NCBI GenBank assembly: GCA_963714965.1
Contig: CAVQQG010000001.1
Coordinates: forward strand, 1,480,653-1,544,652
Direction: 5' to 3'
DNA: 64,000 nucleotides
Source of the DNA: an uncultured Planctomycetia bacterium
GTDB taxonomy: Bacteria > Planctomycetota > Planctomycetia > Pirellulales > Pirellulaceae
Shown: in pieces, positions 12 to 55,503 of the stretch
How the letters are laid out: every line of letters begins with the position of its first letter
How positions within the stretch are numbered: the first letter of the stretch is position 1
The notes under the pieces: model-generated
Databases searched by the model: none
What the model was told of the DNA's origin: nothing
The model's input: only the letters and a program-made list of their open reading frames with translations
Program-made: the position numbers and the translations under genes

Positions 12-347
12 ATGTCGCCGATCGGGGAAGATGAATTTGTGGCCGACCTGGCAATCGACATCGGTTACCCGTTGCTGATCGTGGTACCCAATGTGCTGGG
101 ATGCATCAACTACACCATGCAAACCCTGATTGCGGCCGCCTGTTACCGCCAGGGAACTTCGGTCGCCGGTATTGTCATCACTTATCCGGAAGGGTTTGGA
201 GGGGATGTCAGCACGACCACCAACATAGAGGAAATCGCCAAACGCAGCGTGGCCCCGGTACTGGCCAGCGTCCCGTTTGGCGCTGACACGTTCGATCGCG
301 ACGTGGACTGGTTCGCCCTGGCCAGCACCCGGGGCCAGCTGGTATGA
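12..347 (+). CDS. bioD: dethiobiotin synthase-like ATPase (BioD family), C-terminal fragment truncated at the window edge
   Basis: Translation resembles the BioD C-terminal region (VVPNVLGCINYTMQTLIAA). The ORF runs off the 5' window edge. Its stop overlaps the next start (ATGA). Confidence 0.5.
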   Translation: MSPIGEDEFVADLAIDIGYPLLIVVPNVLGCINYTMQTLIAAACYRQGTSVAGIVITYPEGFGGDVSTTTNIEEIAKRSVAPVLASVPFGADTFDRDVDWFALASTRGQLV

Positions 348-877
348 GCTTTATCCGGTATGTCGCCTCCTCGGAAATTCCGGACGCCGACCGAGTCGAT
401 GACAACGACCGTATTATTCAGGTCCACGGCGTGCACAGCCGTTGTATGAAAATGCACCACCAGCTGTATGCCGAATTGATGCGCGGCCCTGGCCCCCTGA
501 CCCTGGTGCAACGCGAAATGGTGGCCACGGTCGTCTCGTCGATCAATCGTTGTCACTACTGAGTGATTCATCACGGGCGCGGTCTGCGCCGGCAACTGGT
601 CCAATCCGGAATGGATCCGGAGGCGGCCAACCAGCTGGCCGGACAACTGACCCGGGACGGGACGGCGGCGGCGCTGGCCGAAATGGACCGCGCCCTGCTG
701 GACTATGCAACACGGTTGACCCGCCAGCCGTGGTCCGTCACGAACGATCACGTCGAGGATTTGCGGCGGGCGGGACTGGACGATCGGGCCATCCATGATC
801 TGTGCGCGATTGTGGCCTACTATGCCTTTGCCAACCGGATTGCCAACGGACTGGGGATCGATGTTGAGACGGCATGA
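344..877 (+). CDS. AhpD-like peroxidase-related protein (carboxymuconolactone decarboxylase family) with an in-frame TGA at 560-562, candidate selenocysteine
   Basis: ORFs 344..562 and 563..877 are in the same frame, separated only by TGA. Joined they read VSSINRCHY-U-VIHHGRG, matching the family motif VSxxNgChYC..H with TGA at the second Cys. A hairpin with a GGUCU loop lies 14 nt downstream. Confidence 0.65.
576..590 (+). promoter_or_regulatory. candidate bacterial SECIS hairpin (5-bp GC stem, GGUCU apical loop) 14 nt after UGA-560
   Basis: ggcgc-ggucu-gcgcc seen directly in the sequence. The loop resembles the GGUC apical loop of the E. coli fdhF SECIS. Confidence 0.35.
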
Positions 878-3303: not shown

Positions 3304-4545
3304 TTGCTCTGCATGATCCCGTCCGATCCATCGACCTCCGCGTTCACGCAACATTCCGCCATCCGTGTTTGGCAACTGGCGCTGGTACTTGTCGGGTACC
3401 ACAGCGTGGCGGCGACCGATCCGGGGGCCTGGCAGGCAACCGACGGCCCCCCTCAATCCGGACTCAGTCGGGAGGCGGCGACCGAGACCCGTCAGCGGCT
3501 GTGGCAGGATTGGCAAGCGCGGATTCGCGCCGATCACGAATTGGAATGGAACACCAAAAAAATCACCCTGGACCAGCTGGAAATGAAGTTTGAAACGCGG
3601 ACTTTCGGCCAACCTGCCGCAACCGGTCGGCGGCTGTTTATTTCCATGCACGGCGGGGGCGGCGCACCGGCCCGCATTAATGAACAACAATGGCGCAACC
3701 AGATTGGTTTGTACGAGCCTGAGGAAGGCCTGTATCTGGCGCCGCGGGCACCGACGGATCACTGGAATTTGTGGCACGAGCCGCACATCGACCGGTTTTT
3801 CCAGAGGATCATCGGGGACGCGGTCGTGTTCGAACAGGTGGATGCCAACCGCGTCTATTTGTTGGGATATTCGGCGGGCGGTGACGGTGTTTATCAACTG
3901 GCGCCGCGGATGGCGGATCGCTGGGCCGCGGCGGCCATGATGGCGGGTCATCCCAACGACGCCTCCCCCCTGGGATTGCGGAATATCGGGTTTACGCTGC
4001 ACATGGGAGGGGACGATGGCGCCTACGGCCGTAACGAAGTGGCTGCCCGGTGGAAAACCCGTCTGGCCGAACTGCAAGCGGCGGACCCCGATGGCTATCA
4101 ACACTCCGTTACCCTTCACAAGGGACTGGGGCACTGGATGGAGCACCGCGATGACGTGGCCCTGCCCTGGATGGCCGCGTTCCGGCGCGATCCCCGTCCG
4201 CGGCGCGTGGTCTGGCACCAGTCGCCAGTCACGCACGGCCAGTTTTACTGGCTGGCGGTTGATCCCGAAAATGAAATCGCCGGCTCCACAGTGATTGTCG
4301 CGCGGCAGGGGCAAACGATTTCGATTGAACAGGCTGACAAAATTCGGCGACTTACCGTGCTGCTGGACGACGATCTGGTGGATCTGGACCGCCCGGTTAC
4401 TGTTTGCCAGGGGGATCAAGTCCTGTTTCAGGGGATGATTCCTCGCAGTGCCGCAATGCTGCAGGAAACCCTGGAACAACGGGGCGACCGTTATTACATG
4501 TTTCCAGCCAGCGTCACGGTCGATTTGGAAAACGCCGATGACTAA
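3304..4545 (+). CDS. alpha/beta-hydrolase family esterase (carboxylesterase / PHB-depolymerase-like), secreted
   Basis: GYSAGG nucleophile elbow, HGGGG oxyanion region, N-terminal signal-like segment. Confidence 0.7.
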   Translation: MLCMIPSDPSTSAFTQHSAIRVWQLALVLVGYHSVAATDPGAWQATDGPPQSGLSREAATETRQRLWQDWQARIRADHELEWNTKKITLDQLEMKFETRTFGQPAATGRRLFISMHGGGGAPARINEQQWRNQIGLYEPEEGLYLAPRAPTDHWNLWHEPHIDRFFQRIIGDAVVFEQVDANRVYLLGYSAGGDGVYQLAPRMADRWAAAAMMAGHPNDASPLGLRNIGFTLHMGGDDGAYGRNEVAARWKTRLAELQAADPDGYQHSVTLHKGLGHWMEHRDDVALPWMAAFRRDPRPRRVVWHQSPVTHGQFYWLAVDPENEIAGSTVIVARQGQTISIEQADKIRRLTVLLDDDLVDLDRPVTVCQGDQVLFQGMIPRSAAMLQETLEQRGDRYYMFPASVTVDLENADD

Positions 4546-9574: not shown

Positions 9575-10006
9575 TTGAAATCTTATCCCGACCAGTTCGA
9601 GGTGTTTTACGATGGCGATTGCCCGTTGTGCCAGCGCGAAATCAACTGGCTGCGGCGGCGGGACCGGCAGCGGCGGATCGTATTTACGGATATTGCCGAC
9701 CCCGGGTTTGACCCGGAGTCGGTGGGAAAATCGTTCCAAACGCTGATGGACCAGATTCACGGCCGCACCCCGGATGGCCGCTGGATTACCGGCGTCGAAG
9801 TCTTTCGGCATCTGTATCATGCGGCCGGATTCGGCAAATTCGTGGCCGTAACCCGGTTGCCGGTGATTCGGCATATGCTTGATACTGGGTATCGCGTATT
9901 TGCCCGTCATCGGTTGCGGTTAACGGGTCGATGCCGCTCCGGGGTTTGCGGTGTCCAGCCGGCCGCCGACAGGATTTCACCCCATCCGGCATCCCGCCAG
10001 ACCTGA
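9575..10006 (+). CDS. thiol-disulfide oxidoreductase DCC family (DUF393)
   Basis: [14 protein letters not shown] motif. The start is uncertain; TTG 9575 is the nearest in-frame start before the domain. Confidence 0.55.
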
Positions 10007-10037
10007 ACACCGGTCGCCATCATTCCGCCCCAGTGCC

Positions 10038-11345
10038 ATGAGAATCGCAATTATCGGGACAGGTATTTCTGGTCTGACCGCTGCCAGCCAACTGCATCAC
10101 CGGCACGAGATCACGGTATTCGAGGCCAACGATCGTATCGGCGGGCATACGAACACCGTTGACGTCGAGTCCCGCGGACGTTCATTGGCGGTCGATACGG
10201 GGTTCATCGTATTTAACGAGCGGACCTACCCCAACTTTTGCGCGTTGATTTCGCAATTGGGTGTTCGCTCCCAGCCGGCCCCCATGACATTCAGCGTTCG
10301 CTGCGACCGCACCAATCTGGAATACCGGGGCGCCGACTTGCGGGGTTTGTTTTCGCAGCGCCGCAATCTGGTCCGACCCCGGTTTTGGCAACTGTTGGCC
10401 GGACTGTTGAAATTCAATCGCGTCGGTCAGGACTTGCTGGGTGACGTTGACAATCGGCAAACCGTGGCCCAGTTTTTTCGCGAGCACCGTTTTCCGGAAA
10501 TCTTCTATCAAAAATATTTTTTGCCCATGGGTTCGGCCGTCTGGTCCTGTTCCCGGGAGCGATTCGAATCCTTCCCGATTCGATTCATTGCTGAGTTCTA
10601 TCACAATCACGGGCTGCTCGGGATGAAAGACCGCCCGCAATGGCGAGTCATCCGCGGAGGATCCCGGCAGTACGTGCAACCGCTGGTTCGGCCATTTCTT
10701 GACCGCATCCGTCTGAGCTCCCCCGTTCTGGCGATCAGCCGCCGGAACGACCCGCCAGCCGACAATCCCGACTGGGGCGAACCGGCAGCCATCCAGGTCG
10801 CGACCCCTTCCGGGACCGAGCCCTTCGATCATGTCATCCTGGCTTGCCACGCCGACCAGGCACTGGCGATTTTGGGTGATCAGGCGACCCCCCTGGAGCG
10901 GGAGATCCTGTCGGCGTTTCCCTATACCCAAAACGAGGCGGTGTTGCACACGGACACCTCGATTTTGCCGCGGCGGCGGGGGGCCTGGGCCAGCTGGAAT
11001 TATCTGATCGACGACCAGGACGATCCAGCCGCGGCCGCGACGTTAACCTATAACATGAATATTCTGCAAACGCTGGATTGCTCCCAGACCTGGTGCGTGA
11101 CGCTGAATAACACGCATCGCCTGGACCCGCACAAAATCGTGCGGAAATTTGAATATTCGCACCCGCTGTTTGACCTGCGCCGAAAATCCATGCAATCCCG
11201 TCACCACGAATTGATCGACTACCGGAACACGTCCTTCTGCGGCGCTTGGTGGGGCAACGGGTTCCACGAAGACGGGGTGGTTAGCGGCCTGGCTGTCGCT
11301 CGTCAGTTACAATCGATGGACACCCTTTGCCAACCCGCGCGGTAG
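10038..11345 (+). CDS. FAD-dependent oxidoreductase (flavin amine oxidase-like)
   Basis: IAIIGTGISGL dinucleotide-binding motif. Conserved partner of the DUF1365 and cfa genes. Confidence 0.85.
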   Translation: MRIAIIGTGISGLTAASQLHHRHEITVFEANDRIGGHTNTVDVESRGRSLAVDTGFIVFNERTYPNFCALISQLGVRSQPAPMTFSVRCDRTNLEYRGADLRGLFSQRRNLVRPRFWQLLAGLLKFNRVGQDLLGDVDNRQTVAQFFREHRFPEIFYQKYFLPMGSAVWSCSRERFESFPIRFIAEFYHNHGLLGMKDRPQWRVIRGGSRQYVQPLVRPFLDRIRLSSPVLAISRRNDPPADNPDWGEPAAIQVATPSGTEPFDHVILACHADQALAILGDQATPLEREILSAFPYTQNEAVLHTDTSILPRRRGAWASWNYLIDDQDDPAAAATLTYNMNILQTLDCSQTWCVTLNNTHRLDPHKIVRKFEYSHPLFDLRRKSMQSRHHELIDYRNTSFCGAWWGNGFHEDGVVSGLAVARQLQSMDTLCQPAR

Positions 11346-11387
11346 GCCTCGTGGTCAGGTTCCCGTTTCCCTGTCGTCAAGATCCTG

Positions 11388-12302
11388 TTGTTTTGGCAGC
11401 CCCTTGTGAACAGCTGCATTTACGAAGGCCGTGTCTTGCATCGCCGGTTTCATCCGGTGCCGCATGCGTTTGCCTACCGGCTGTTCATGTTGTCGCTGGA
11501 TCTGGACGAACTGGACCGCGTATTCAGGAACCGCTGGCTCTGGTCCACAGGCGGATTCAACTGGGCGTGGTGGCGGCGCGGCGATCATCTGGGTGACCCG
11601 GACCAGCCCCTGGCCGAAGCGGTCGGCGATTTCCTGGAATCCCGGGGAATTGCGCGGCCCGATGGCCCCATTCGCCTGCTGACCCAGGTACGCTACCTGG
11701 GGTTTGCCATGAATCCGGTGGCGTTTTTCTATTGCTACGATTCATCGGCCCGATTGCAGCATGTCGTGGCCGAGGTGAACAATACGCCGTGGGGCCAGCA
11801 ACATTGCTATCTGGTGGAACCCGTGCATTTCCAGCCCCTGGCCGAAACGCCGCGCAAGCCTCTGGACAAGGAATTTCATGTCTCTCCCTTCTTGCCGATG
11901 AACATGCAGTATCGCTGGAGGATATCGGCTCCCGAGGATCGCCTGACGATCGGAATCAGCAATTACCAGGGGGATCGCCGGATGTTGTCGGTGGCCATGT
12001 CGCTGACCCGGCAACCCTTGACCGCCGCCAATATGCGGCGGGCGCTGTTACGTTATCCGCTGATGACCGGTCAGATCTTCGCCGGAATTTACTGGCAGGC
12101 GTTTCGTCTGTGGAGGAAACGCGTTCCATTCTTTCCTCATCCCGGACCACCGGCGGGTACCGATTCCCGTCCTGCGGGCGGCGACCGCCCGGTCGAACCC
12201 GCCGTCATTGATTCGCCGCCGAATTCCGTGGTTCCCGTTCACGGGTGTCCTGCGGATCGGGTTCCAACACTGGCGGGGACCGCCAAAGACCAACCTGGGT
12301 GA
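11388..12302 (+). CDS. DUF1365 family protein
   Basis: Typical DUF1365 sequence. Its stop at 12300-12302 abuts the cfa start at 12305. Confidence 0.8.
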
Positions 12303-12304
12303 AC

Positions 12305-13597
12305 ATGTTTGATTCCTTGTTTTCAAGACTGGTTGACGCCCGCCTGCGCAAGTTGCAGGGCGGCCATATCACGCTGATCGACGGGGACCAGCAATGGTGC
12401 TATGGCAACGACGATGCCGAGTTGTCGGTGACGATTCTGGTTCATCATCCACGCTGGTACCGGCGGATCGCTCTGGGGGGCGGAATCGGTGCTGCCGAAG
12501 CGCTGGCCGATGGCGACTGGACCTGTTCGGACCTGACTGCTTTGGTCCGAATCATGATTCGCAATTTACCGGCCGGCGACACGGCCAATGGCCCGTTGAC
12601 CCGGATCCGCCACGCCGCCGAACAGCTTGGACACTGGATGCGACGCAATACGGTGGTCAATGCCCGGCAGAATATCATCCGGCATTACGATCTGAGCAAC
12701 GAGTTTTTCGCGCTGTTTCTGGACCACTCCATGACCTATTCTGCGGCCATTTTTCCCCACCGCGAGGCGTCGTTGCTGGACGGCTCGATGGAGAAAATTG
12801 ACCGGGCCTGCCGCAAGCTGAATTTAAGGCCCTCCGATCATTTGCTGGAAATCGGCACCGGCTGGGGATCTCTGGCCATTCATGCCGCTGAACGATACGG
12901 CTGCCATGTGACCACGACGACGATCTCGGACGAGCAATATGCCTTTGCCCGCCGAAGAATTGATGATGCCGGCCTGACCGGGCAGATTACCCTGCTCCAC
13001 CAGGATTACCGGAATTTGACCGGCCAGTACGACAAGCTGGTTTCGATAGAGATGATCGAAGCAGTGGGCCATCATTACTTTGATGCTTTCTTTCGGCAAT
13101 GCGGCGCACTGCTCAAGCCTGACGGACAGTTGCTGATACAGGCGATAACGATTGTTGACCATCGCTATGAACATCACCGGCGGACCGTCGACTTTATCAA
13201 GCGATTTATTTTCCCGGGCGGTTGCCTGCCATCCGTCGCGGCCCTGTTGAACTCGATGGCCAAAACGTCCCGATTGCGGCTGGTCCACCTTGAGGAGTTT
13301 TCCGCCCATTACGCGGAAACCCTGGCTCGGTGGCGCAAGCGATTCCTGGATCATCTGGACGACGTGCGACAGCTGGGATTTGATGAACGATTCATTCGCA
13401 TCTGGGAGTATTATTTTTGTTACTGCCAGGCGGCATTCCTGGAACGACATGTGAATGTGTCCCAGTTATGGATGGCCGGGCCGGCGGCCATCGTTTCGCC
13501 CGTCGACCAGTCGTTTCAGACAGCCGGCTCGACCCCCGATCCGCAACCGCCTGCGGCAAACCCGGAAGGCGTTTTTGTGGAGTCACCTGCCCGGTGA
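12305..13597 (+). CDS. cfa: cyclopropane-fatty-acyl-phospholipid synthase family methyltransferase
   Basis: SAM-binding motif LEIGTGWGSL and conserved Cfa C-terminal region. Confidence 0.85.
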   Translation: MFDSLFSRLVDARLRKLQGGHITLIDGDQQWCYGNDDAELSVTILVHHPRWYRRIALGGGIGAAEALADGDWTCSDLTALVRIMIRNLPAGDTANGPLTRIRHAAEQLGHWMRRNTVVNARQNIIRHYDLSNEFFALFLDHSMTYSAAIFPHREASLLDGSMEKIDRACRKLNLRPSDHLLEIGTGWGSLAIHAAERYGCHVTTTTISDEQYAFARRRIDDAGLTGQITLLHQDYRNLTGQYDKLVSIEMIEAVGHHYFDAFFRQCGALLKPDGQLLIQAITIVDHRYEHHRRTVDFIKRFIFPGGCLPSVAALLNSMAKTSRLRLVHLEEFSAHYAETLARWRKRFLDHLDDVRQLGFDERFIRIWEYYFCYCQAAFLERHVNVSQLWMAGPAAIVSPVDQSFQTAGSTPDPQPPAANPEGVFVESPAR

Positions 13598-13635
13598 CAC
13601 AGACTGCCCTGGAAACACCCGGACATCCCCAAATC

Positions 13636-14688
13636 ATGGTCGGCATGGAATTATTGACAAATCTGGTAATTGACTCGATTGAGCGGGGCCGGGTACCTGA
13701 CCCGGTTACCCGCCGGTTAACCAGGCGCCTGTGCCGCCAGCGGTTGTCAGCACTGCAGCGACAGTACGCGAACCAGCCCGATCACGGGGTCCCTGGCTTT
13801 GCCTCGCACATGCGTCAAGGGCCTGTCGCTCCGGTCCCCGACATTGCCAACCAGCAGCACTACGAATTGCCGGCCGGTTTTTTTCAGCGGATGCTGGGGC
13901 CGCGGCTGAAATACAGCAGCGGATACTTCGAAACGCCGAATTCCACCCTGGCCGAAGCGGAAATCGCTGCGCTGCGCCAGACCTGCGACCACGCCGAACT
14001 GGCCGATGGCATGGATGTCCTGGAACTCGGATGCGGCTGGGGCAGCTTGACGTTGTGGATGCTGGAACAGTATCCCAACCTGTCGGTGACCGCTGTTTCC
14101 AATTCCCGATTCCAGCGGCAACTGATTGAGGAACTGGCCCGGGATCGCGGTCTGGCGGAACGTCTGACGGTGATCACGGCGGACATGAACGATTTCTCCA
14201 TCGACCGCCGTTTTGAGCGGGTCGTTTCCTGTGAGATGTTCGAACATATGCGGAACTACCAGCGTCTGCTGCACCGCATTGCCGGCTGGCTGACCGGGAA
14301 TGGACGTTTGTTTGTCCATATTTTTTGCCATCGCCGGTTCGCCTACGAGTTTCAGGCAGCCGGGGCCAGCAACTGGATGGGTCGTTACTTTTTCACCGGC
14401 GGAATTATGCCCAGCGCTAATTTGCTGGACCAGTTCCAGGAGGATTTGCGTGTCATTGGGCACCACGTCTGGGACGGCACCCACTATCAGCGAACCTGCA
14501 ATGCATGGCTGGACCAGCTGGATCAGCACCGCGACCAGATCCGGCCAATCCTGCGGGACGTGTACGGCGACGCGGCCGATCGCTGGCTGGGTCGCTGGCG
14601 ACTGTTTCTGATGGCCGGTGCGGAATTGTTCGGGTTTGATTCGGGCCGGCAGTGGCAAGTCGGTCATTACCTGCTGGCCCGTCCCTGA
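13636..14688 (+). CDS. second Cfa-family SAM-dependent methyltransferase
   Basis: VLELGCGWGSL motif and a Cfa-like C-terminus. Confidence 0.85.
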   Translation: MVGMELLTNLVIDSIERGRVPDPVTRRLTRRLCRQRLSALQRQYANQPDHGVPGFASHMRQGPVAPVPDIANQQHYELPAGFFQRMLGPRLKYSSGYFETPNSTLAEAEIAALRQTCDHAELADGMDVLELGCGWGSLTLWMLEQYPNLSVTAVSNSRFQRQLIEELARDRGLAERLTVITADMNDFSIDRRFERVVSCEMFEHMRNYQRLLHRIAGWLTGNGRLFVHIFCHRRFAYEFQAAGASNWMGRYFFTGGIMPSANLLDQFQEDLRVIGHHVWDGTHYQRTCNAWLDQLDQHRDQIRPILRDVYGDAADRWLGRWRLFLMAGAELFGFDSGRQWQVGHYLLARP

Positions 14689-16181: not shown

Positions 16182-17465
16182 ATGACTCGCGATTGGCGAC
16201 CGAAACCTGAATTTGCCTGCGAGAACGGAATGTCCGGTCAAATCCTGATTCGAAACCTGCCCCCGGCGACCCGCACCTGGTTGCGTCGGGAATGCCACCG
16301 GCAAAACGTGTCGCGCAATTCGCTGGTGCTTTCTGTGCTGCAGCAAGCCATGGGATCGGGCCGCGAGCCGCCCCGGTTCGACGAGCGGCCTGTCGCCGAA
16401 ACACCGGGCAACGCGGCCGGTGGCGGTTTGCCGTTTTCATTTATCGATCTGTTTTCAGGAATCGGTGGATTGCGACTCGGCTTGCAGGCGGTGGGCGGCC
16501 GTTGCCGGTTTTCCTGCGAAATCGACCGCTTTGCCCGCCGTACCTACCACGCCTGGTTTGGCGAAACCCCCGCCCAGGATATTCGGGATTTTGCCTCGGG
16601 AACCGGGATTCCGCCGCATGATGTGCTGGCCGCCGGTTTTCCCTGTCAGCCGTTTTCGATTGCTGGTGTCTCCAAAAAGAAAAGCCTCGGCCGGGACCAC
16701 GGTTTTCAGGACAAGGCCCAGGGGACGCTGTTTTTTCATCTGGCTACCATCGTCGAAGCCACCCGACCGGCAGTGCTGTTGCTGGAAAATGTCAAAAACC
16801 TGCGTACGCACAACCGGGGCGACACGTGGCGGACGATCTCCGGGCGGCTGGCAGACCTGGGCTATGTCGTATTCGACCAGATCATCGACGCGGCTGACTA
16901 CGTCCCCCAGCATCGGGAACGGATCTTTATCGCCGGTTTTCGTCGGGACATCTTTGGAGACACTCCCCCCTTTCGGTTCCCGGACCCCCCCGCCGGGGCA
17001 CCGCCGGTGCTGGACGACATCCTGCTGACAGACAAGCAGGTTTCCGACAAGTACGTGTTGTCAGACCACCTGTGGCAATACCTGCAGGACTACGCGCGGC
17101 GGCATCAGGCGCGGGGCAACGGATTTGGTTACGGCCTGGCAGATCGAACGGGAATCACGCGAACCCTGAGTGCCCGATACTACAAGGATGGGTCGGAGAT
17201 CCTGATCCCGCGTGGACCGCGACGCAATCCGCGGCGACTGACTCCGCTGGAAGCTGGCCGGCTGATGGGATTTCCCGAGGACCTGGTTCAGCAGCAAGTC
17301 GTGTCGGATAGCCAGGCCTACAAACAATTCGGTAATGCCGTAGTCCCTGGCGTCGTGCAAGCTGTCGCCGAACAGATCGCTGCCGTCATGCGCTGGCAGC
17401 TGGGGCGGCGAAACCACGGATGCCTGCTGACACCGGCACCGTTGCAGCAGATCAGCGGCGTCTAA
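16182..17465 (+). CDS. dcm: DNA (cytosine-5)-methyltransferase with an N-terminal ribbon-helix-helix-like domain
   Basis: C5-MTase motifs I (FIDLFSGIGGLRLG), IV (GFPCQPFS) and the ENV motif. The N-terminal 45 aa (ILIRNLPPATRTWLRRE...SLVLSVLQQA) look like an Arc/MetJ or antitoxin RHH domain. Confidence 0.85.
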   Translation: MTRDWRPKPEFACENGMSGQILIRNLPPATRTWLRRECHRQNVSRNSLVLSVLQQAMGSGREPPRFDERPVAETPGNAAGGGLPFSFIDLFSGIGGLRLGLQAVGGRCRFSCEIDRFARRTYHAWFGETPAQDIRDFASGTGIPPHDVLAAGFPCQPFSIAGVSKKKSLGRDHGFQDKAQGTLFFHLATIVEATRPAVLLLENVKNLRTHNRGDTWRTISGRLADLGYVVFDQIIDAADYVPQHRERIFIAGFRRDIFGDTPPFRFPDPPAGAPPVLDDILLTDKQVSDKYVLSDHLWQYLQDYARRHQARGNGFGYGLADRTGITRTLSARYYKDGSEILIPRGPRRNPRRLTPLEAGRLMGFPEDLVQQQVVSDSQAYKQFGNAVVPGVVQAVAEQIAAVMRWQLGRRNHGCLLTPAPLQQISGV

Positions 17466-17617
17466 AACGATCGACCGGCCTGTCCGGCTGCCATGCCATT
17501 TGTCAGGCGTCCGGGAAAAGAGGGTCCGGCGGCCGCCTGCGGGGAAAAAAAACAGGGCGCCGACAGGCCATGACACCTGCCGACGCCCGCACAGTGACGT
17601 CGCCATTGGGGAACGGT

Positions 17618-18895
17618 TTATTTCAGCATGCCGCCCATTTCCCGCAACAGGGATTCGATTTGCTGGTGATTTTGCGGCGTTTGCAGGATCAGCAGCGAGA
17701 CCGCGGGCGCCGTGATCTGGATCGATTCGTCCAGCCACGAGTCCGGCGCTATCTTCGACTTGAGATGCTGCATCAGCCGCAACGTCGAGCTGGCCACGGG
17801 CGGGGCAATCAGATCGCCCACGTAATAATGCCGCCAGGTCCGTTGTTCGGCAGGCAGCGGCACTGGACGAAACGGCTGTTGCGTCTCGGCCCAGGGTCGC
17901 AGGGGTTTCGATTCCCACGCCGCGGGTTGCAGTTGTCCTTCGCCGCTCCAGGACGCGGCCAGCCGCTGCTCCGCGCGGGACTGGTTGGCGGGCGAGGTTT
18001 GGCAACTTTGTAACTGGTGCTCCAGTTGGCGGACTTGCTGTTGCAACTCATGGATCCGGTCCATCTCGCTGACGACCGGCAACGTGGGGGTCAGTCGCGA
18101 CTCCCACGCCACTCCCTCGACCGGCCGCCGCCTGGCCGGCGGTTCGGTCGGCTGGAATTCCTGTTGCAGGTGCCGGGATAAAAACTGCAAACTTTCGTTG
18201 GTCTGCTGCAGTTCCTGCCGGGTCTGGATGATCATGCGGCGGGTTTCGGCCATCTCGAAATTCAATTGCGACAGGTCGGTCTGCGCGGGGGGCATCACGT
18301 GAAACGCCGTTGACGGTTCGGCGGCCATGGCCGCCCGGTGGGCCTGATCGGCCGCCGATTCCAGGGCCATCCCCAGGACCTGCCGAACATGCTGCGGATC
18401 GCGCGGCTGACGGGTCAGATATTCGGTCAGCTCGGTCGCCAGCTGGTCCCGCCGGGCGGACAATTCGTAACCGTTTTCGCGCAGGAACGACACCGCACCC
18501 GGAAGGGGTCGGTTGGTGGCAAGTTGACGGTTCAGCGGGGTGCCATTGTCGTCCGTGGCGGCGGGGCCGGGTGTGCTCGACGCCACGTGTGGCAGGCCGA
18601 TTCCCGTGTCATGCGGGCAACGTCCGCTACCTTGCGGGCAATCAGCAGCGCATTTCGGGCAATCATCAGCGCATTGCGGGCAATCAGCAGCGCATTGCGG
18701 GCAATCATCAGCGCATTGCGGGCAATCATCAGCGCATTGCGGGCAATCATCAGCGCATTGCGGGCAATCAGCAGCGCATTGCGGGCAATCAGCAGCGGAT
18801 TGCGGGCAATCAGCAGCGCATTGCGGGCAAAGGTTGCCGCAGTGGGGGCAACCGCCTTCGTGACAATCCCCACCCGGCAACGCCTGGCCAACCAC
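17618..18895 (-). CDS. Cys-rich heptad-repeat / coiled-coil protein, reading frame probably disrupted upstream
   Basis: N-terminus is 9-10 copies of [A/D]DCPQCA encoded by the 21-bp repeat; C-terminal two thirds are coiled coil. A signal peptide and further Cys-rich segments lie in two other frames upstream (to 19199). Confidence 0.5.
   Translation of the reverse strand: MVGQALPGGDCHEGGCPHCGNLCPQCAADCPQSAADCPQCAADCPQCADDCPQCADDCPQCADDCPQCAADCPQCADDCPKCAADCPQGSGRCPHDTGIGLPHVASSTPGPAATDDNGTPLNRQLATNRPLPGAVSFLRENGYELSARRDQLATELTEYLTRQPRDPQHVRQVLGMALESAADQAHRAAMAAEPSTAFHVMPPAQTDLSQLNFEMAETRRMIIQTRQELQQTNESLQFLSRHLQQEFQPTEPPARRRPVEGVAWESRLTPTLPVVSEMDRIHELQQQVRQLEHQLQSCQTSPANQSRAEQRLAASWSGEGQLQPAAWESKPLRPWAETQQPFRPVPLPAEQRTWRHYYVGDLIAPPVASSTLRLMQHLKSKIAPDSWLDESIQITAPAVSLLILQTPQNHQQIESLLREMGGMLK
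18634..18830. repeat. about 9.5 near-identical copies of a 21-bp tandem repeat, gcgggcaatca(g/t)cagcgcatt
   Basis: Counted directly in the sequence. Only a G/T alternation at repeat position 11 (plus one other change in the first copy); one C>G change in copy 8. Confidence 0.95.
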
Positions 18896-19521
18896 GGCGG
18901 TGCCGGTTCTCCGGGCACATTGGCGCAGGGGGCCACGACATGGCAGGATCCGTTTTCACAATCGCGACAGCCGCTGTTTGCCGCGCGTTGGGCCGAACCC
19001 TGGTCGCAGTCCGCATCACGGCGGCCCGAGTCAGCGTCGCCCGGTTCTGCAGCGGCGGCCTGCGGTAACGCCGCGGCCGTGCCAACGGCTGCCCGGGCCT
19101 GGTCGGCCGGGGACCAGGGCGCTCCTGGGCATTGGCCAGTGAACTGACGGCAACCAGCGCGGCAACCCCGACCATACACCCTGTTCTGTTGATTCTCATC
19201 GCGCTGATCCTCCTCGATCGATCGATGAATCGGTTGACGGCCAGCGTTGCATGGTCTTCTGGAAAGTGCGCATGCCCGGGACCGTCCGCGTTCGCTGGCC
19301 GGGCCAATGGGCGATCACAACGGCCGCCCGCTCTGGCCCGACCGGATTGTTACCTGGAAGGGTTTTTGGGGGCAATATCGATCGGCGGCTGGACCGCCGG
19401 TCAAATGGCCGGGCGGGCGTCCGCCTGGCAGGACGATCGAATATTCGACAAAAATGGCGCGGCGCGGTATTTTGACAGCACACCCACCCTGTTCTGTGCC
19501 CGGTTCGATTTGAGGAAACCG

Positions 19522-22094: not shown

Positions 22095-22745
22095 TCAGGG
22101 AGCGGCGCAGTATTCGGATTCCAGTTCCGACAGACGGTGCGCCACGTTTTCGGCCAGCAGGCCATCATCCTGCTGCAGCATCCGGCGGTACTCCAGATCA
22201 AAGGCTTCCAGTTCTGCCTCAATCGTGCGGCGGGCCGCTTCGGTCATCCGGTCCGGAAACAGAACCCCCTGCAGATGATCGAATTCGTGCTGGACAATGT
22301 GCGCCAGGCGGCCGTCGATGATCCGGTCAACGGGGTTGCCCTCCAGATCGTAGGCCAACAAATGAACCTGGGCAGGACGCACGACATTTCCGTAAACACC
22401 GGGAATGCTCAAACAGCCTTCTTCGGCTTCCTCGCGTCCCTTGGGTGATTGCAGCACCGGATTTATCAGAACGTGTTCTTCACCCGCTCCTTGTTCCCCG
22501 GCCTCGTTGATAATAAACAGCTGAAACGGCAAGTCCACCTGGTTGGCGGCCAGGCCAACGCCATGATGTTCGTACATCAACTCGAACATTTCCGCCACCT
22601 GTTTTTTCAGGTGGCGGTTGACACGGCGCAGCGGTTTCGAGACATGTCGCAATGTCGGGTGGGGGATATTGATAATTTGCAACGCAATCCTGCTCCGCGG
22701 CAGACCTGGGCGGCTGCCGCCGCCATTGACCCGGCCTGCCAGCAT
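22095..22745 (-). CDS. def: peptide deformylase
   Basis: GVGLAANQ, EGCLS and QHEFDH motifs. The C-terminal extension is somewhat longer than in E. coli Def. Confidence 0.85.
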   Translation of the reverse strand: MLAGRVNGGGSRPGLPRSRIALQIINIPHPTLRHVSKPLRRVNRHLKKQVAEMFELMYEHHGVGLAANQVDLPFQLFIINEAGEQGAGEEHVLINPVLQSPKGREEAEEGCLSIPGVYGNVVRPAQVHLLAYDLEGNPVDRIIDGRLAHIVQHEFDHLQGVLFPDRMTEAARRTIEAELEAFDLEYRRMLQQDDGLLAENVAHRLSELESEYCAAP

Positions 22746-22773
22746 TCAACCTGGCGAGTGCATCGTTTCCCTG

Positions 22774-22779
22774 ATTATA
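22774..22779 (-). promoter_or_regulatory. TATAAT -10-like hexamer about 28 nt upstream of the def ATG
   Basis: Seen in sequence (minus-strand TATAAT). The -35 is poor. Speculative. Confidence 0.25.
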
Positions 22780-23891
22780 GACATGCCGGGCGTTGCCGGC
22801 AGTGTATCGCGGGCAATTGTCAGGAATACAGGCAGCGCCGCATTCAGGTTTTTGTCAAGTGCGAGCAATTCATCAAAAACGCGTCAAAAAAAATCCGAAC
22901 GCCAACCCTTGACAGACGCCGGTCCTGTTTTTTCGGGATCGGGATTGGGACCGCTCGCAGCAAGCATTGAATCGAAAAAAGACAAAAAACTTTCTTGTCA
23001 AAAACTCTTTAAGATTCCTTGACAACGTTTGCATGATGCCCAGAATAATCCGTTGATCGGGCAAGTCGATTCGGACCGTCCTAGTCGCGGTCACGGTATT
23101 GAGTCGCGCGGTATTGAGGCGCGTTTTGAGTCACGCATTGAAGATCGAGCGTGGTTCAACTGAAAGCTGTCGCCAGAAGCAACCATAACAACAGGACCAT
23201 AACAACAGGACAAGTCGAGAAAAAGATTGAACGGCCGCGTGCCACGGCAATTGTGCGCGGCGCAGTGCTCCGCCCAAGATCGGTCGTGAAAGTTTGGGTA
23301 AATCCGAATGTTACTGTTTCCAGAATCCTGCAGCCTCGGTGGCGACAGGTTTCGGTTTGAAAGATCCGGCGGCCGCGCGGCCCTGGTTCCGGACAGCGAT
23401 GTGGAAGGCCGTTGTGATTTTGCGTTCCTTTTCATTGATTTCAGTTGGTTCGTCATTTCGTTCTTCGTTGGGTTCATATCGCAGTTTCTTTCGATATCGA
23501 ACCCCTTCGAATCATGTTGCAGACGGGTGGCTCGATGGCCCCGCCCAGAAAAACGCGGGCTGGCGCCGACAATTGCGTTTCAGATGGCACGATCGATGGT
23601 TTACGTTGGTTTTCGGATCATAAGCGGCTTTACATGTGCCCCGGGCATGGCCCGGGCACTTATGCGAACTGGGTGGCGACTGAGGGATACGACGAAGGCG
23701 TTGTTAATTCGCGTTAGGAACGTCACGGTAGGATTCCGCACCCAATTTTTGTGCTGACCGGATCTCCAGCCATGATGGCTGTTGGGTCAGTACAGGTAGT
23801 CATTTGCGCTTGAAAACGGATCTTTGCGTTTTTCGGGCCGAGCGCGGTGCCGGTACATGATGTACCGCCACCGTTTTTTTGTGCCCCTGCC

Positions 23892-33080: not shown

Positions 33081-33153
33081 GGTGTGGTACGGGACTCGAA
33101 CCCGCAACAGCCAGTTGGGTAAACTGGTGCTCTTCCGGTTGAGCTAACCGCGC
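33081..33153 (-). pseudogene. degenerate tRNA-like element (probable tRNA pseudogene)
   Basis: Good D-arm (GCTC-AACCGGAA-GAGC), anticodon stem, V-loop and consensus T-arm (GCGGG-TTCGAGT-CCCGT). The acceptor stem has two C.A mismatches. The anticodon loop UUACCCA gives A34 and C37, which is non-canonical. No CCA. Confidence 0.35.
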
Positions 33154-41408: not shown

Positions 41409-44400
41409 ATGCGCATGTCAGGTCAGGGACGACCCGGGACTGTATTTCTGTTTCTCGTGCTGGTGAGCGTGCCGGTTCCTTCACGGCTTGCAGCCCAAAC
41501 CATCGACTGGCCGCGCAACATTGCCGCGCAAGACGACTGCGAACTGACGGACGTCTATTTCAGGGATCGTGAAACCGGATGGGTGATCGGGCGACGAGGA
41601 TTGTTGTTGATGACGGTGGATGGGGGCCGTTCGTGGGAAGAGCAGACTCTGGAGGTCGACTGCGACCTGGAAACGATTTGTTTCGCGTCACCGTCGATCG
41701 GCTGGATCGCCGGTGGCTACCGTCTGCCTCATGCCGCGGCCAGCCGGGGCGTGCTGCTGGAGACCAGCGATGGCGGCACCAGCTGGCAAACCGTCCCGGG
41801 CCTGGACATCCCGCGGATTCGCAAACTGTTGTTCGATTCTGCCCGTGACGGATTCGCAATCGGCGACTCGGGTCCCGGGAATCCCGGTGGAATCCTGATC
41901 AGTAACGATGGCGGACGCAGCTGGTCCGGATCGATGAAAGCGGAGCCGGCGGCATGGCAAGCGGCCGAACGTTTTCCGGATCAACGACTGGTACTGGCCA
42001 GTCGAAACGGCCAGATCGCACTGGCCCAAAATGGCCTCTGGAATCCGACCGGGCCGAGTGGCCTGGCGGCCGGGGCCATTAACGATTTTTGCGTGCTGGA
42101 TCCACACAACGCCATGGCAGCCGGGGATCGCGGACTGGTGGCTCAAACGGCCGATGGCGGCCGGTCATGGCAACCGGTCGATGCCGCGGCGGCATGGCCC
42201 GATGCGTCGGTGGATTTTCAGGTTATCGTTAGCGCCGGCAACCGGATCTGGATGGGGGGCGACCCCGGTGGCCTGATCTTTCGCCTGGAGCCCGGCAATC
42301 GCCGCTGGTCCAGGCACCCGTTGCCCATTCGGTCGCCCATTACCGGGATGCATTTCATCGATGAACAAACGGGCTGGGCCGTCAGTCGCCTGGGAGACAT
42401 CATTCATACCGGGGACGGCGGAGAAACGTGGTCCCTGCAACGGCGCAGAGCGCGGGGCGTCGCCCTGCTGCAACTGGCTGCCGATGCCGGGGGCTTTTGC
42501 CCGGAATTTTTTGCCAAATTCTGCGGGGATGAGGGTTATGTGGGGGGGGCGATTCTGATTTCGTCCGCAGATGCTTCCCCGAGCCGTAACGCATGCGATG
42601 ACGCCGGCCAGGCGCTGACCCGCGTCGGTGCCAGCTTTCTCGTTCAGGCCCCTTCAGAACTTTTGACTCCCGAATCCGCACAGTCCTCACCGGATCCGCG
42701 ACTGCGTGAGTACCTGGTCCGACAGATCCGCTGTTTGCAACCCCGTGTGATTGCCGTGGACGCCGGTGGCGGCCGTCAAAAAGCGGAGTTCGATTTGCGC
42801 AACCAGATTCTGGCAGCGGTCAACGATGCGGCCGATCCGGGTCAATTCGAGCATCAATGTTCCGGTCTGGAGTTGCCGGCCTGGCAAGTTGGAAAGGTCA
42901 TTCTGATCGACCGCTCGGGCAGTGGTGCCACCGGTATTTCGGGACATGAGTACCTGACGCGGATGGCCTGCCTGGTGGGTGATTACGCCGCACCCAGTCG
43001 TCATTTGCTGGGACAGACCGAACGCGACGTGCGCGCGATTTCCATTCAGACGCTGTACTCCAGCCCGCTGGTTGCCGGTCGCTCCGGTTCCCTGATGGAT
43101 TCGATTGAGCGGCTGGACGGCCAGGTTCCCAAACGCAGACAACAGCGACCGGCCAACGGCAATATGATCTCGATGCGACAGTTGGCCAGTAAAACCCAGC
43201 GCCTGGATACGCTGCTGGAATTGGCAGCGCAGCCGGACAGCACCACCGGCCAGTTCGCCAGGGGATTGGCCAACCTGTGTGGCAATCTGGATGACGCGAC
43301 GGCCGGTGTCTGGCTGTACGAACTGGGCCAACTCTGCCTGCAGCGGGGTGATACCGCGTTTGCCCGGTTTGCATTCAGCTATCTTCTGGATCAGTATCGT
43401 CGGCACCCACTGGCCCTGGCGGCCGCGTTGCAACTGTACGATGACTTTTCCAGCACCGAAATGGCGATGCTGGCCCGAACGCGGATTGAAGCGGCGTACC
43501 GGTTTCAACAGGACCATCCGCCGTCTCCGGCGGCCAACACCCCACCGCTGACGCGGCCGGTTACTCACTATGAGAACGGTATTGCGACGACCGTTTGGGA
43601 AGCAGTGGTCGACGAGTCCAACGGTCCGGTTCATCCGGTACGCCAGGTCAACTTTCTGGAAACGCAGCTCGATCGATTGTCGACCGTGCGGCACCAGCAG
43701 GCCTATTCGTCCGGCCAGACCGTGACGGTTTTCGACTCCGGCGGCCTGGACAACAACCAGCGGATTTTGTCCCGGATTCGATTGAACCAGAAACTGGAGC
43801 CGACGATCTCGCTGGAAGACCAGCTCAAACAGGTTGCGGCGGTCCCTCCCGAACAATCCATTGTGGCGTCGGCAGCCCTCCGCGAACTGGCCGTGGAGCG
43901 ACAGGGCACGGCGGCGGCAGCCCGCCGATTCGGGTTCCTGTGTCCGGTAGCCGGGAAACGGCCCTGGCTGGATGGAAAGCTGGATGATCCGGTCTGGAAT
44001 CAGGTGCGTCAGGACGGACGGTTTTTCTCGCTGGCTGACGCTGCGGTTCAGGTCACCGATCAGGTGATGATTGCCTGTGATGATGAGTTTTTGTTCGTGG
44101 CCATTACCTGCGCCGTTTGCCAGGCATGCAATACGCTCAACCGACAGGCGCTCGACAGCGTGACGCACAAATGTCCGAATCCGACACCGTCACACTGGGA
44201 ATTGACACCGACCGCGATTATTTGTCGCGATTCCAGTTGATGGTCGACAGCGCCGGCCGTGTCGCCGACCAGTGCGGAGAGGCACTTGGCTGGGATCCCC
44301 AATGGTACGTCGCCCATCGAACGGACGATCAAAACTGGTATGCGGAAATCGCCATTCCCCTGGATGAATTGTGCACTTCCGGCAGCCAACCGTTGTGGTC

Positions 44401-44659
44401 CTTTTCGGTATCCCGAACCTTGCGAGGAATGCCGGTTTCCACGTGGTGGCAATCGGATTTGTCGGGCGCCGAAATGCCGCCGTGGTCTGTCAAGGATGCC
44501 AGCATAAAAAGCGGGTTAAACGCCGGCCCGATTCATCCCGATGCGTGGGCCATGATTCTGATGCCCTGGCGGCCGGCCGATTCCGATAGCGATCCCAGAC
44601 CCCCATCGGCCAGGTCCGCTGGCAAACCCACGGTAACGGCATTGCCAGCTGATAATTAG
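41409..44659 (+). CDS. large secreted Ycf48/BNR-like beta-propeller protein with a C-terminal CBM9-like domain, frameshifted around 44110-44190
   Basis: Signal peptide, DGG.SW BNR-type repeats, and a CBM9-like C-terminus that continues in ORF 44117..44659 in another frame. Confidence 0.65.
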
Positions 44660-45087
44660 CTGTCACCCCCAGTCCGGTTGGGCAGGCGGTCGTCATGTGG
44701 ATCGCAACCGGGGACCCGTGCAGGGTCGCTGGCCGGGCACGTTGGCAGGAGGACCGGCCCGTCACCGGCGGGGGTCGTTTCTGCCACAAAGTTTTGGAAC
44801 CCGTCTTGCCGTGACCGGATGTAACGTTTACAAACCCGCGTGCAATTTTGGGAGCGATTCGTTTGGCCGGGCTGACCGGATTCAACCCGAGGATGAACAA
44901 CCCTCCCACAATTGCCGGTGAACCGCGACGGAACCGATCCGCAACGCGAGCAGTTTCGATTCCGGGAGATCCTGGCACGGCAACTGCACGGTGTTGACGG
45001 AGTGCCGGATGCACCTCGCCATTTACCGCACGTTAGTAAATCACAACTCGCCCATACGTGCTTCACATCTGTCAGGGAGGATTGATC

Positions 45088-45681
45088 TTGAAGACGTCAT
45101 CGAAATTTATCGTCACATTTGCCTGCGTCGTAGCGTTGGCTGGAACCTTGCAGGCCCAGGAAAGCAGTTCGGGCATGGTCGCCGTACTGGATGTTGCCCA
45201 GGTCTTCAAGGACAACACGGTTTTCAACCAGCGGATGGAGGCCATCAAGATCGAGGCTGAACAATTCAAGGCCAAGATGGAGGCCGAGCAGGCATCGATT
45301 CGTCAGGAAGCCGAGCGGTTGAACGAGTATACCCCCGATTCGGACGAATTCCGGCAATTGGAAGGCGAGCTGGAGCAGCGAACGGCCCAGCTCCGCACGG
45401 TGGCCCGGCAAACCAACACCGACATGCTCAATCGTGAAGCGACGATTTACTACGACACCTATTCCCAGATGCAGGAAGTCATTGCCTCAATCGCCGCGGA
45501 ATACAACATCACGCTGGTCGTCCGTTTTGATGGAGGTCCGATTGACCGCACCAACCGGGGTGAGGTCATCAAGGGCGTTAATCGCAACGTCGTCTATCAG
45601 AAAAATCTGGACCTGACCAACATGGTGGTCGAGCGGATGGGCTCGGTGGCCTCTGCCGGTATGGGTAACAACATCAAATAG
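45088..45681 (+). CDS. skp: OmpH/Skp family periplasmic chaperone
   Basis: GGGAGGA RBS before TTG 45088. Signal peptide and a coiled-coil Skp-like body. Confidence 0.7.
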   Translation: MKTSSKFIVTFACVVALAGTLQAQESSSGMVAVLDVAQVFKDNTVFNQRMEAIKIEAEQFKAKMEAEQASIRQEAERLNEYTPDSDEFRQLEGELEQRTAQLRTVARQTNTDMLNREATIYYDTYSQMQEVIASIAAEYNITLVVRFDGGPIDRTNRGEVIKGVNRNVVYQKNLDLTNMVVERMGSVASAGMGNNIK

Positions 45682-55495: not shown

Positions 55496-55503
55496 CGCAT
55501 GCC

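What the first reader, a model, noticed from the sequence alone, without database searches (positions are those of the whole stretch)
17618..19199. Near-perfect 21-bp tandem array encoding a [A/D]DCPQCA heptad Cys-rich protein with a disrupted upstream frame
About 9.5 copies of gcgggcaatca(g/t)cagcgcatt (18634-18830) differ at a single position beyond one change in the first copy and one in copy 8, which implies very recent expansion or ongoing copy-number variation. On the minus strand they encode CPQCADD/CPQCAAD repeats fused to a long coiled-coil C-terminus. A clean signal peptide (MRINRTGCMVGVAALVAVSSLANAQ, start 19199) and further Cys-rich segments lie upstream in two other frames. The native gene is probably a secreted metal-binding repeat protein whose frame is broken either by sequencing error or by real switching. 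Because the repeat unit is 7 codons, copy-number change stays in frame, so the variation would be in length rather than on/off.
Basis: seen in the sequence. Interest (0 to 1): 0.55.

Follow-up and report, generated by a model that had tools for sequence, protein, structure and literature searches.

The report
Cysteine-repeat expansion in a broken secreted-protein gene
A planctomycete gene for a secreted, cysteine-rich protein has recently gained nine near-identical in-frame copies of a 21-base unit, and as sequenced it is cut off from its own export signal by two missing bases; this is an ordinary coding minisatellite in a probably dead or mis-sequenced gene.

Summary
A 21-bp array lies at 18632-18830, with 9 full units plus 8 bp and only three variable positions. 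On the minus strand it encodes CPQCA[A/D]D heptads inside ORF 18895..17618.

The gene is the syntenic orthologue of a rare, unnamed Pirellulaceae family of about 20 clusters. Members have a signal peptide, a hypervariable CxxC-rich region, helices, and a C-terminal secretin-N-like domain. All orthologues are intact (424-461 aa where the gene call is trusted), and none has such an array. The array is therefore a lineage-specific amplification of the family's CPxC knuckle.

The signal peptide at 19199 is real: it is 65% identical to an orthologue's. It lies two frame shifts away from the repeats. Adding one C at the C4 run (19112-19109) and one at the C5 run (18932-18928) restores a 527-aa ORF.

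About 40 other genes in the window were checked and all are intact. Random sequencing error therefore does not explain the breaks. The likely causes are real inactivating mutations (about 0.5) or local errors in a 77% GC patch (about 0.37). Switching is unlikely. Metal binding was not tested. The public annotation keeps only the last 322 aa.

The parts
19209..19214 (-). Shine-Dalgarno-like AGGAGG, 9 nt upstream of ATG 19199
   Evidence: Read directly from the sequence.
19125..19199 (-). Signal peptide MRINRTGCMVGVAALVAVSSLANAQ in frame A. As sequenced, this frame runs on to a TGA at 18812-18810, inside the array.
   Evidence: tblastn with orthologue P0002 residues 1-26 gives 17/26 identities, in a different frame from the body of the gene. 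All family members begin with a similar signal peptide ending in AQ.
19109..19112 (-). C4 run, candidate site of the first missing base (frame A to frame B)
   Evidence: It is one of only four homopolymers of 4 or more bases in 19130-18860. Adding one C here joins the signal peptide to the Cys-rich acidic frame. It lies in a 76-77% GC patch, among the top 0.5% of 100-nt windows. The exact site is inferred, not shown.
18933..19108 (-). Cys-rich acidic segment in frame B (...DADCDQGSAQRAANSGCRDCENGSCHVVAP...)
   Evidence: Over the 76-codon span 19122-18895, frame B has 5 Cys, 10 Asp+Glu and 5 Arg, like family N-termini (Cys 8-15%, Arg 0-7%). The continued signal-peptide frame has 1 Cys and 16 Arg (the frame labels 1 and 2 are swapped in that script). 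There is a weak, non-significant match of CRDCENGS to CEECQEGD in P0003 (E about 0.7); P0004's CEDCLEGD at the same place is my reading of the sequence.
18928..18932 (-). C5 run, candidate site of the second missing base (frame B to frame C)
   Evidence: It lies downstream of the last frame-C stop, TGA at 18958-18956. Adding one C here completes a 527-aa ORF. The site is inferred.
17618..18895 (-). ORF of 425 aa as sequenced (frame C, GTG start, no signal peptide): CPxC region, helical region, C-terminal domain
   Evidence: ORF listing and translation. 49% identical to P0002 over 90% of its length and 38-39% to P0003 and P0004. Strong GC3 signal from 18650 to 17618.
18632..18830 (-). 21-bp tandem array: 9 full units (18634-18822) plus 8 bp, encoding CPQCA[A/D]D heptads
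18823..18864 (-). Two degenerate older units upstream of the array (GGCPHCGNL, then the start of CPQC)
   Evidence: These units have 8-10 mismatches to the consensus unit, yet both Cys codons and the Pro are kept, with a synonymous CCG to CCC change. CPHC aligns with CPHC, CPYC and CPFC in the orthologues.
18613..18633 (-). Degenerate unit downstream of the array (CPQGSGR, followed by CPHD)
17618..18586 (-). Part kept by the public annotation (P0001, 322 aa, starting after the repeats)
   Evidence: P0001 is 100% identical over 76% of the query and comes from an NCBI/ENA contig of 2.25 Mb. My crude gene caller makes the same call.
17999..18487 (-). Conserved helical region (residues 137-299: four helices, with the motif LPGxxSF...HVRQVLxMALExxADxAHRAA)
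   Evidence: AlphaFold2 helices at 137-161, 167-191, 208-246 and 277-299, with 10-residue block pLDDT 73-92. Conserved columns in the family alignment.
17624..17839 (-). C-terminal secretin-N-like domain (residues 353-424, beta-alpha-beta-beta-alpha)
17545..17588 (-). Intrinsic terminator: 14-bp stem (10 G-C pairs) followed by TGTTTTTTTT

Best explanation
The locus is the orthologue of a conserved but uncharacterised Pirellulaceae gene. The protein has four parts: a Sec signal peptide, a hypervariable CxxC-rich region, a helical or coiled-coil region, and a C-terminal secretin-N-like domain.

In this lineage, one 21-bp unit encoding a single CPxC knuckle plus a 3-residue linker has recently been amplified in frame to about 9.5 copies. 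The mechanism I infer is replication slippage or unequal recombination. This adds roughly 60 residues and 17 cysteines to the N-terminal region.

Upstream of the array, the sequence lacks one base at each of two places, most simply at the C4 run 19112-19109 and the C5 run 18932-18928. The signal peptide, the first Cys-rich stretch and the repeat-bearing body therefore sit in three different frames.

Taken at face value, these are genuine inactivating mutations. The gene would then be a recent pseudogene, or at best an N-terminally truncated, non-exported remnant. The array would be a neutral or formerly useful length variant.

Shown: the array, the frames, orthology, the signal peptide, and the restorability of the ORF. 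Inferred: the slippage mechanism, the exact frameshift sites, that the indels are real, and the protein's role. I take that role to be a periplasmic or envelope protein that docks or oligomerises through its secretin-N-like domain and carries a disulfide-forming or metal-binding head.
For: Array.

Frame C is the selected frame. The degenerate flanking units keep Cys-Pro-x-Cys with a synonymous Pro change, and orthologues have CPHC, CPYC or CPFC at that place.

Orthology:
- 49% identity to P0002 and 38-39% to P0003 and P0004.
- The neighbour order Cupin_2, Peptidase_S15, Pep_deformylase, HPPK, glycogen synthase is identical.
- The signal peptide is 65% identical to that of P0002 but lies in another frame.

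All orthologues and about 12 further family representatives are intact and carry signal peptides. None has an array of more than 2-3 short copies.

Two shifts rather than one are needed, on the composition of the three frames. Two added C's give a 527-aa ORF.

The breaks are not part of a noisy assembly. About 40 other genes checked have full-length Pfam domain coverage, and none of the adjacent same-strand ORF pairs checked is a split gene. 341 C/G runs of 4 or more bases in other coding sequences are unbroken, against 2 of 13 in this gene. Clustering of lesions in one gene is what relaxed selection produces. One repeat unit has lost a cysteine (CPQS).
Against: Both lesions lie in the first 270 nt, while the remaining 1.3 kb has no lesion and keeps a strong coding signal. 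This is unexpected for uniform neutral decay: about 1.6% if the two lesions were placed at random.

The first site sits in a 76-77% GC patch, where sequencing or polishing is most likely to fail. Both putative lesions are single-base deficits in C runs, which is the classic signature of long-read homopolymer undercalling.

No reads and no second genome of the species are available, so neither the reality of the indels nor the copy number could be checked.
Confidence: 0.5

Rival explanations
1. The two frame breaks are local sequencing or polishing errors. The real gene is intact and encodes a 527-aa exported protein whose N-terminal region carries nine CPQCA[A/D]D heptads. The array is then a functional, recently expanded and possibly copy-number-variable module.
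For: One added C at each of the two longest C runs in the interval restores an ORF with no stop. Its length, after removing about 66 repeat residues, fits the orthologues. The Shine-Dalgarno sequence, start codon, signal peptide and terminator are all preserved. The remaining 1.3 kb is undamaged. The first site lies in a 76-77% GC patch, among the top 0.5% of 100-nt windows.
Against: No other frame break was found in about 40 checked genes. 341 other coding C/G runs of 4 or more bases are unbroken, so a special local cause has to be assumed. The second site lies in sequence of ordinary composition (66-68% GC). One repeat unit has lost a Cys.
Confidence: 0.37
2. The frame breaks are a regulatory device: phase variation by slippage at the C runs, or programmed ribosomal frameshifting. 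The exported protein would then be made only in a subpopulation or at low level.
For: A -1 slip of tRNA-Pro on the C5 run (GCC CCC TGC) would move from frame B to frame C. This comes from reading the sequence. The gene encodes an exported protein, the class in which contingency loci are common (established knowledge).
Against: The runs are only 4 and 5 bases long, whereas known contingency tracts are usually 7 or more (established knowledge). Two independent shifts would both be needed, so yields multiply. The first site offers poor re-pairing (TCC for CCC). All orthologues are encoded in a single frame. The 21-bp array cannot switch frame.
Confidence: 0.04
3. The array is not CPxC-coding. Either it is read in frame B, as an (ARNALLI)n helical repeat ending at 18532, with the downstream 322-aa ORF being a separate gene as annotated; or it is an assembly artefact with the wrong copy number.
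For: Frame B has the better codon usage across the array: GC3 about 0.70 against 0.40-0.45. My crude gene caller picked ORF 18532..18873 plus 17618..18586. In frame B the common variant is a conservative Leu/Met change and one singleton is synonymous. A 199-bp near-perfect array is longer than a short read, so the copy number is uncertain if no long read spans it.
Against: Orthologues carry CPHC, CPYC or CPFC at this position in the frame that continues into the conserved body. The degenerate flanking units conserve both cysteines. Codon usage of an amplified 7-codon unit is a sample of one. No relative has an ARNALLI-like repeat (one search was run on the CPxC reading only; searches show none in the family). 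The interspersed A/D variants give the array internal landmarks, which argues against a simple collapse.
Confidence: 0.05

Closest known systems
In-frame coding minisatellites (VNTRs) in bacterial surface or secreted protein genes. Textbook examples from my own knowledge are the alpha C protein of group B Streptococcus and the staphylococcal Ser-Asp repeat proteins.
   Same: The unit length is a multiple of three (21 bp = 7 codons). The copies are near-identical, implying recent slippage or recombination. The array sits in the exposed, fast-evolving part of an exported protein. A change in copy number alters length, not frame.
   Different: Variation between strains or reads could not be shown. 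The unit encodes a CPxC knuckle rather than a spacer-like or antigenic repeat. The host gene is frame-disrupted upstream as sequenced.
Secretin N-domains (Pfam Secretin_N, PF03958: the N1-N3 ring-building domains of GspD, PilQ, EscC and InvG), and the many planctomycete proteins built from repeats of this module
   Different: The window protein does not reach the Pfam threshold: it has no hit at E<=1, and 3 of 16 relatives hit at E>=0.026. It has a single copy and no secretin pore domain (PF00263). It is not a secretin.
Cysteine-rich YTV cell-wall proteins of Planctomycetes (reviewed in the introduction of PMC8567305)
   Same: They are planctomycete-restricted, exported and cysteine-rich, so disulfide cross-linking in the envelope is a plausible role.
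   Different: There is no YTV motif or Pfam YTV hit. The architecture differs. The family is restricted to a few Pirellulaceae lineages.
CPxC(G) zinc knuckles of rubredoxin or zinc-ribbon type, and CxxC redox motifs (CPHC of DsbA, CPYC of glutaredoxin); from my own knowledge
   Same: The ancestral unit reads CPHCG. Orthologues read CPHC, CPYC or CPFC.
   Different: There is no surrounding zinc-ribbon or thioredoxin fold. The region is predicted disordered, with pLDDT below 50. No family model matches. Chemistry was not tested.

Membership tests
Unnamed Pirellulaceae family (P0002-P0019: signal peptide, CxxC-rich region, helices, secretin-N-like C-terminus) | Full-length sequence similarity of the conserved body | tested here: met
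   E 5e-98 and 49% identity to P0002; 38-39% to P0003 and P0004. The profile search recovers about 20 full-length cluster representatives. Conserved motifs are aligned.
Unnamed Pirellulaceae family (P0002-P0019) | Conserved genomic neighbourhood (orthology) | tested here: met
   Divergent Cupin_2, then Peptidase_S15/PepX_C, Pep_deformylase, HPPK and glycogen synthase, in the window and in L001 and L002.
Unnamed Pirellulaceae family (P0002-P0019) | N-terminal signal peptide in the same reading frame as the body | tested here: not met
   The homologous signal peptide is present at 19199 but is two frame shifts away from the body. It is restorable by two single-base insertions.
Unnamed Pirellulaceae family (P0002-P0019) | CxxC-rich N-terminal region with an invariant CxxC | tested here: met
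   Two Cys columns forming a CxxC are invariant in 16 sequences. The window has 9 CxxC motifs and 22 Cys, against 3-9 motifs and 9-20 Cys in relatives.
Pfam Secretin_N (PF03958) | Score above the Pfam gathering threshold | tested here: not met
   No hit at E<=1 for the window protein. 3 of 16 relatives hit, best E 0.026.
Pfam Secretin_N (PF03958) | Beta-alpha-beta-beta-alpha fold and similarity to secretin N-domains | tested here: met
Secretins proper (Pfam Secretin, PF00263) | C-terminal outer-membrane pore domain | tested here: not met
   No PF00263 hit in the protein or in any of the 16 relatives. The protein ends directly after the N-like domain.
YTV cysteine-rich cell-wall proteins | YTV domain or motif | tested here: not met
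   No YTV family among the Pfam hits at E<=1. No YTV tripeptide in the ORF translation.
Phase-variable contingency locus (simple-sequence switch) | Repeat whose unit is not a multiple of 3, or a long homopolymer, in or before the ORF | tested here: not met
   The unit is 21 bp. The longest homopolymers between the start codon and the array are C4, A4, C5 and G4.
Phase-variable contingency locus or coding VNTR | Length polymorphism among reads, isolates or samples | not testable with these tools
   No reads are available. The species is absent from the genome and metagenome collections searched.
In-frame coding VNTR | Near-identical head-to-tail units of 3n bp inside the coding frame of an exported protein | tested here: met
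   Nine units with at most 1 mismatch each, allowing G or T at the variable site. They lie in the frame shared with the orthologues' CPxC motif. Orthologues are exported proteins.
Metal-binding Cys repeat proteins (metallothionein-like or zinc-knuckle arrays) | Demonstrated or model-supported metal site | not testable with these tools
   No family model hit. The region is modelled with pLDDT below 50. Biochemistry is needed.

The most novel reading that the evidence does not exclude
The gene is really intact, the two indels being sequencing errors. The array would be an adaptive, recently selected amplification creating a new kind of exported repeat module: a string of nine CPxC knuckles on a 7-residue pitch with acidic linkers. 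Such a module could bind soft metals or act as a redox or disulfide buffer in the planctomycete periplasm. Its copy number would vary within the population, tuning capacity. No comparable heptad array exists among 5.8 billion protein clusters.
Probability: 0.12. Interest if true: 0.6.

Novelty: new member of a known kind. Interest (0 to 1): 0.3.

Why it matters
Three modest points follow.

1. The locus catches in the act how the hypervariable Cys-rich head of this planctomycete protein family changes length, namely by tandem duplication of CxxC-encoding units. Orthologues show only 2-copy traces of this.

2. It corrects the public annotation. That annotation keeps only a 322-aa tail and hides both the repeats and the signal peptide.

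3. It defines a small, uncharacterised Pirellulaceae family that joins a cysteine-rich head to a secretin-N-like docking domain.

If the gene proved intact, the poly-CPxC module would be a simple natural test case for metal or disulfide chemistry in the planctomycete periplasm. If it is a pseudogene, it is an ordinary example of gene decay.

Tried and rejected
Searches that gave nothing useful:
- Pfam and NCBIfam on all three minus-strand ORFs gave only sub-threshold coiled-coil noise.
- A PDB sequence profile of the whole family gave coiled-coil noise only.
- The repeat peptide found no hit at E<=0.01 among 5.8 billion protein clusters.
- A two-unit DNA pattern found no match in metagenome contigs.
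- Exact look-up of the annotated product P0001 found no record, and the cluster look-up gave no names or accessions, so the source genome could not be identified beyond Pirellulaceae-like relatives.
- A genome-collection scan found only two distant loci, and the second metagenome scan found one. No close relative exists to test copy-number variation or the indels.
- Two literature searches found no paper on this family.

Readings considered and rejected:
- A single frameshift joining the signal-peptide frame directly to the repeat frame. The continued signal-peptide frame has 16 Arg and 1 Cys in 76 residues, unlike any relative.
- Frame B as the selected frame of the array, giving an ARNALLI repeat. 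Flank and orthologue conservation of CPxC argues against it, even though codon usage favours frame B.
- Plus-strand ORFs across the array (18310..19068 and 18338..19147). All homology is on the minus strand.
- A generally error-ridden assembly. About 40 neighbouring genes are intact.
- CRISPR-like or iteron-like non-coding repeats. The units are head to tail with no spacers and lie inside an orthologous coding region.
Full report
**1. The observation**

Tandem Repeats Finder reports one strong array in the region: 18632-18830, period 21, 9.5 copies, 95% matches, score 356. Across the whole 64-kb window, nothing else scores above 66 except a 3-bp periodicity at 63535-63828.

None of 100 shuffles gave any match. 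The G/T site carries T in units 2, 4, 5 and 6. There are two singletons, at base 1 of unit 2 and base 18 of unit 8.

On the minus strand the units read CPQCAAD or CPQCADD. The singletons give CPQSAAD and CPKCAAD. The array lies inside ORF 17618..18895, which is 425 aa with a GTG start.

ATG 19199 opens MRINRTGCMVGVAALVAVSSLANAQ in a second frame, and AGGAGG sits 9 nt upstream of it. A Cys-rich acidic stretch lies in the third frame.

**2. What the gene is**

Searching 5.8 billion protein clusters with the 425-aa ORF gave four hits.
- P0001 is this genome's own annotated product. It is 322 aa and begins after the repeats.
- P0002 (459 aa), P0003 (460 aa) and P0004 (461 aa) are 49%, 39% and 38% identical over 90-96% of the query. 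All are intact and begin with a signal peptide.

The signal peptide of P0002, MKRNKTWCVAGVAALVATGSLAHAQE, matches the window's 19199-19122 with 17 of 26 identities. That match is in a different frame from the body of the gene.

The neighbours are the same in the window and in the contigs that carry P0002 and P0004. They are a divergent small cupin, an S15 peptidase, peptide deformylase, HPPK and glycogen synthase. These are therefore orthologues. The relatives come from Pirellulaceae metagenome-assembled genomes.

A profile search of 1.84 billion cluster representatives found about 20 full-length family clusters. All of those inspected have a signal peptide, a Cys-rich head of variable length, and the same conserved body. 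It also found about 200 proteins that share only the last 50-75 residues, often in several copies.

No Pfam or NCBIfam model covers the family.

**3. Architecture**

AlphaFold2 was run with the 16-sequence family alignment.
- Residues 1-139, which include the repeats, have pLDDT below 50.
- Helices are predicted at 137-161, 167-191, 208-246 and 277-299.
- A confident beta-alpha-beta-beta-alpha domain spans 353-424.

In the multi-copy relatives checked, the matching stretches coincide with Pfam Secretin_N hits. A profile of the domain has GspD as its best PDB hit, at E 0.046. The window protein itself does not reach the Pfam threshold, and it has no secretin pore domain. I therefore call the domain secretin-N-like. 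I do not file the protein as a secretin.

**4. The array within the family**

The Cys-rich head is the hypervariable part of the family. It spans 74-137 residues and holds 9-20 Cys. Only one CxxC is invariant.

At the aligned position, orthologues read CPHC, CPYC or CPFC. The units flanking the array are degenerate, with 8-10 mismatches to the consensus. They still keep both cysteines and the proline, including a synonymous CCG to CCC change. Frame C is therefore the frame under selection, and the array is an amplification of that knuckle.

No orthologue has more than a 2-3-copy trace of short duplication in this region. The repeat peptide has no counterpart in the protein collection, and the repeat DNA has none in the metagenome contigs. 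The expansion is lineage-specific and recent. I infer slippage or unequal recombination as the mechanism.

Codon usage across the array favours frame B, which reads ARNALLI. An amplified 7-codon unit is a sample of one, so I reject that reading.

**5. The frame breaks**

Frame A carries the signal peptide and runs open to a TGA at 18812-18810. Frame C is closed by a TGA at 18958-18956.

A single A-to-C shift is formally possible. However, over the 76 codons after the signal peptide, frame A has 16 Arg and 1 Cys. Frame B has 5 Cys, 10 Asp+Glu and 5 Arg, which resembles the family (that script's labels for frames 1 and 2 are swapped). Frame B also shows a weak, non-significant CRDCENGS/CEECQEGD match to P0003, and P0004 reads CEDCLEGD at the same place.

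The path is therefore A to B to C. Each step is a one-base deficit. Only four homopolymers of 4 or more bases lie in the interval. One extra C at the C4 run (19112-19109) and one at the C5 run (18932-18928) restore a 527-aa ORF. The sites are inferred.

**6. Real lesions or errors?**

About 40 other genes in the window were checked with Pfam and all show full-length domain coverage. They include dnaA, dnaN, gyrB and the immediate neighbours. None of the adjacent same-strand ORF pairs checked is a split gene. Other coding sequences contain 341 C/G runs of 4 or more bases, all unbroken, against 2 of 13 in this gene.

Random homopolymer error is therefore excluded. Either selection has been lost on this gene, or there is a local technical cause.
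- For real lesions: clustering in a single gene, and a lost Cys in one repeat unit.
- For error: both lesions are C-run deficits. The first lies in a 76-77% GC patch, among the top 0.5% of 100-nt windows. The remaining 1.3 kb is undamaged and still looks coding.

I put real lesions at about 0.5, local error at about 0.37, and switching or recoding at about 0.04. The runs are too short for switching, two shifts would have to combine, and all orthologues are encoded in a single frame. The remaining probability goes to other readings.

**7. Function**

Nothing is known experimentally about this family. From the architecture, I infer an exported protein that docks or oligomerises through its secretin-N-like domain and helices. 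Its cysteine-rich head would form disulfides or bind metal.

Cysteine-rich envelope proteins are known in planctomycetes, namely the YTV proteins (PMC8567305). This family lacks the YTV motif.

**8. Verdict**

This is a real, lineage-specific in-frame coding minisatellite. It lies in the orthologue of an uncharacterised Pirellulaceae secreted protein. As sequenced, the gene is separated from its signal peptide by two missing bases.

It is a new member of a known kind and of modest interest. The public annotation, a 322-aa tail, misses both the repeats and the signal peptide.

Noticed in passing
window 51114-61074: The window spans the chromosomal replication-origin gene cluster, all on the minus strand: dnaA-like (59977-61074), dnaN (58492-59610), DciA (58109-58495), gyrB (55567-58029) and a ParA-type ATPase (51114-52004). 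ScpB lies at 62663-63403 on the plus strand. All appear intact by Pfam coverage.
   Followed up: partly
window 16230-17465 (+): A complete C-5 cytosine DNA methyltransferase (Pfam DNA_methylase 1-322/324) sits directly downstream of the repeat gene. The orthologous loci L001 and L002 have unrelated genes at that position, so it looks like a lineage-specific insertion. No partner restriction enzyme was identified.
   Followed up: partly
window 63407-63850 (+), array 63535-63828: A 294-bp stretch with 3-bp periodicity (TRF consensus CGA, 98 copies, 67% matches) lies inside a 147-aa ORF with very high coding score and no Pfam hit. It is presumably a low-complexity protein.
   Followed up: no
window 344-562 and 563-877 (+): Two small ORFs (72 and 104 aa, no Pfam hit) lie in the same frame, separated only by a stop codon. 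They could be a gene interrupted by a nonsense codon or two abutting small genes.
   Followed up: no
window 9575-14688 (+): A same-strand run of five genes: DCC1-like thiol-disulfide oxidoreductase, amine oxidase, DUF1365, and two cyclopropane-fatty-acid-synthase-like methyltransferases. It looks like a lipid-modification operon.
   Followed up: no
window 22683-23891, 44241-45147, 53322-54425: Three stretches of 0.9-1.2 kb had no gene in my crude gene call and no Rfam or tRNA hit. The first contains two small 14-15-bp direct duplications, at 23094-23123 and 23182-23211.
   Followed up: no
window 33081-33153 (-): ARAGORN calls a tRNA-Gly with anticodon ACC, which is an unusual anticodon for bacteria. 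The Rfam tRNA score is modest (45.9 bits) compared with the neighbouring tRNA-His (70.3 bits).
   Followed up: no
L004 678-733 of the gene region (locus coordinates about 3507-3562): The orthologue in MAG JBGTFW010000186.1 has its own 21-bp, 2.7-copy repeat at 80% match. It lies in the helical region, not in the Cys-rich head.
   Followed up: no
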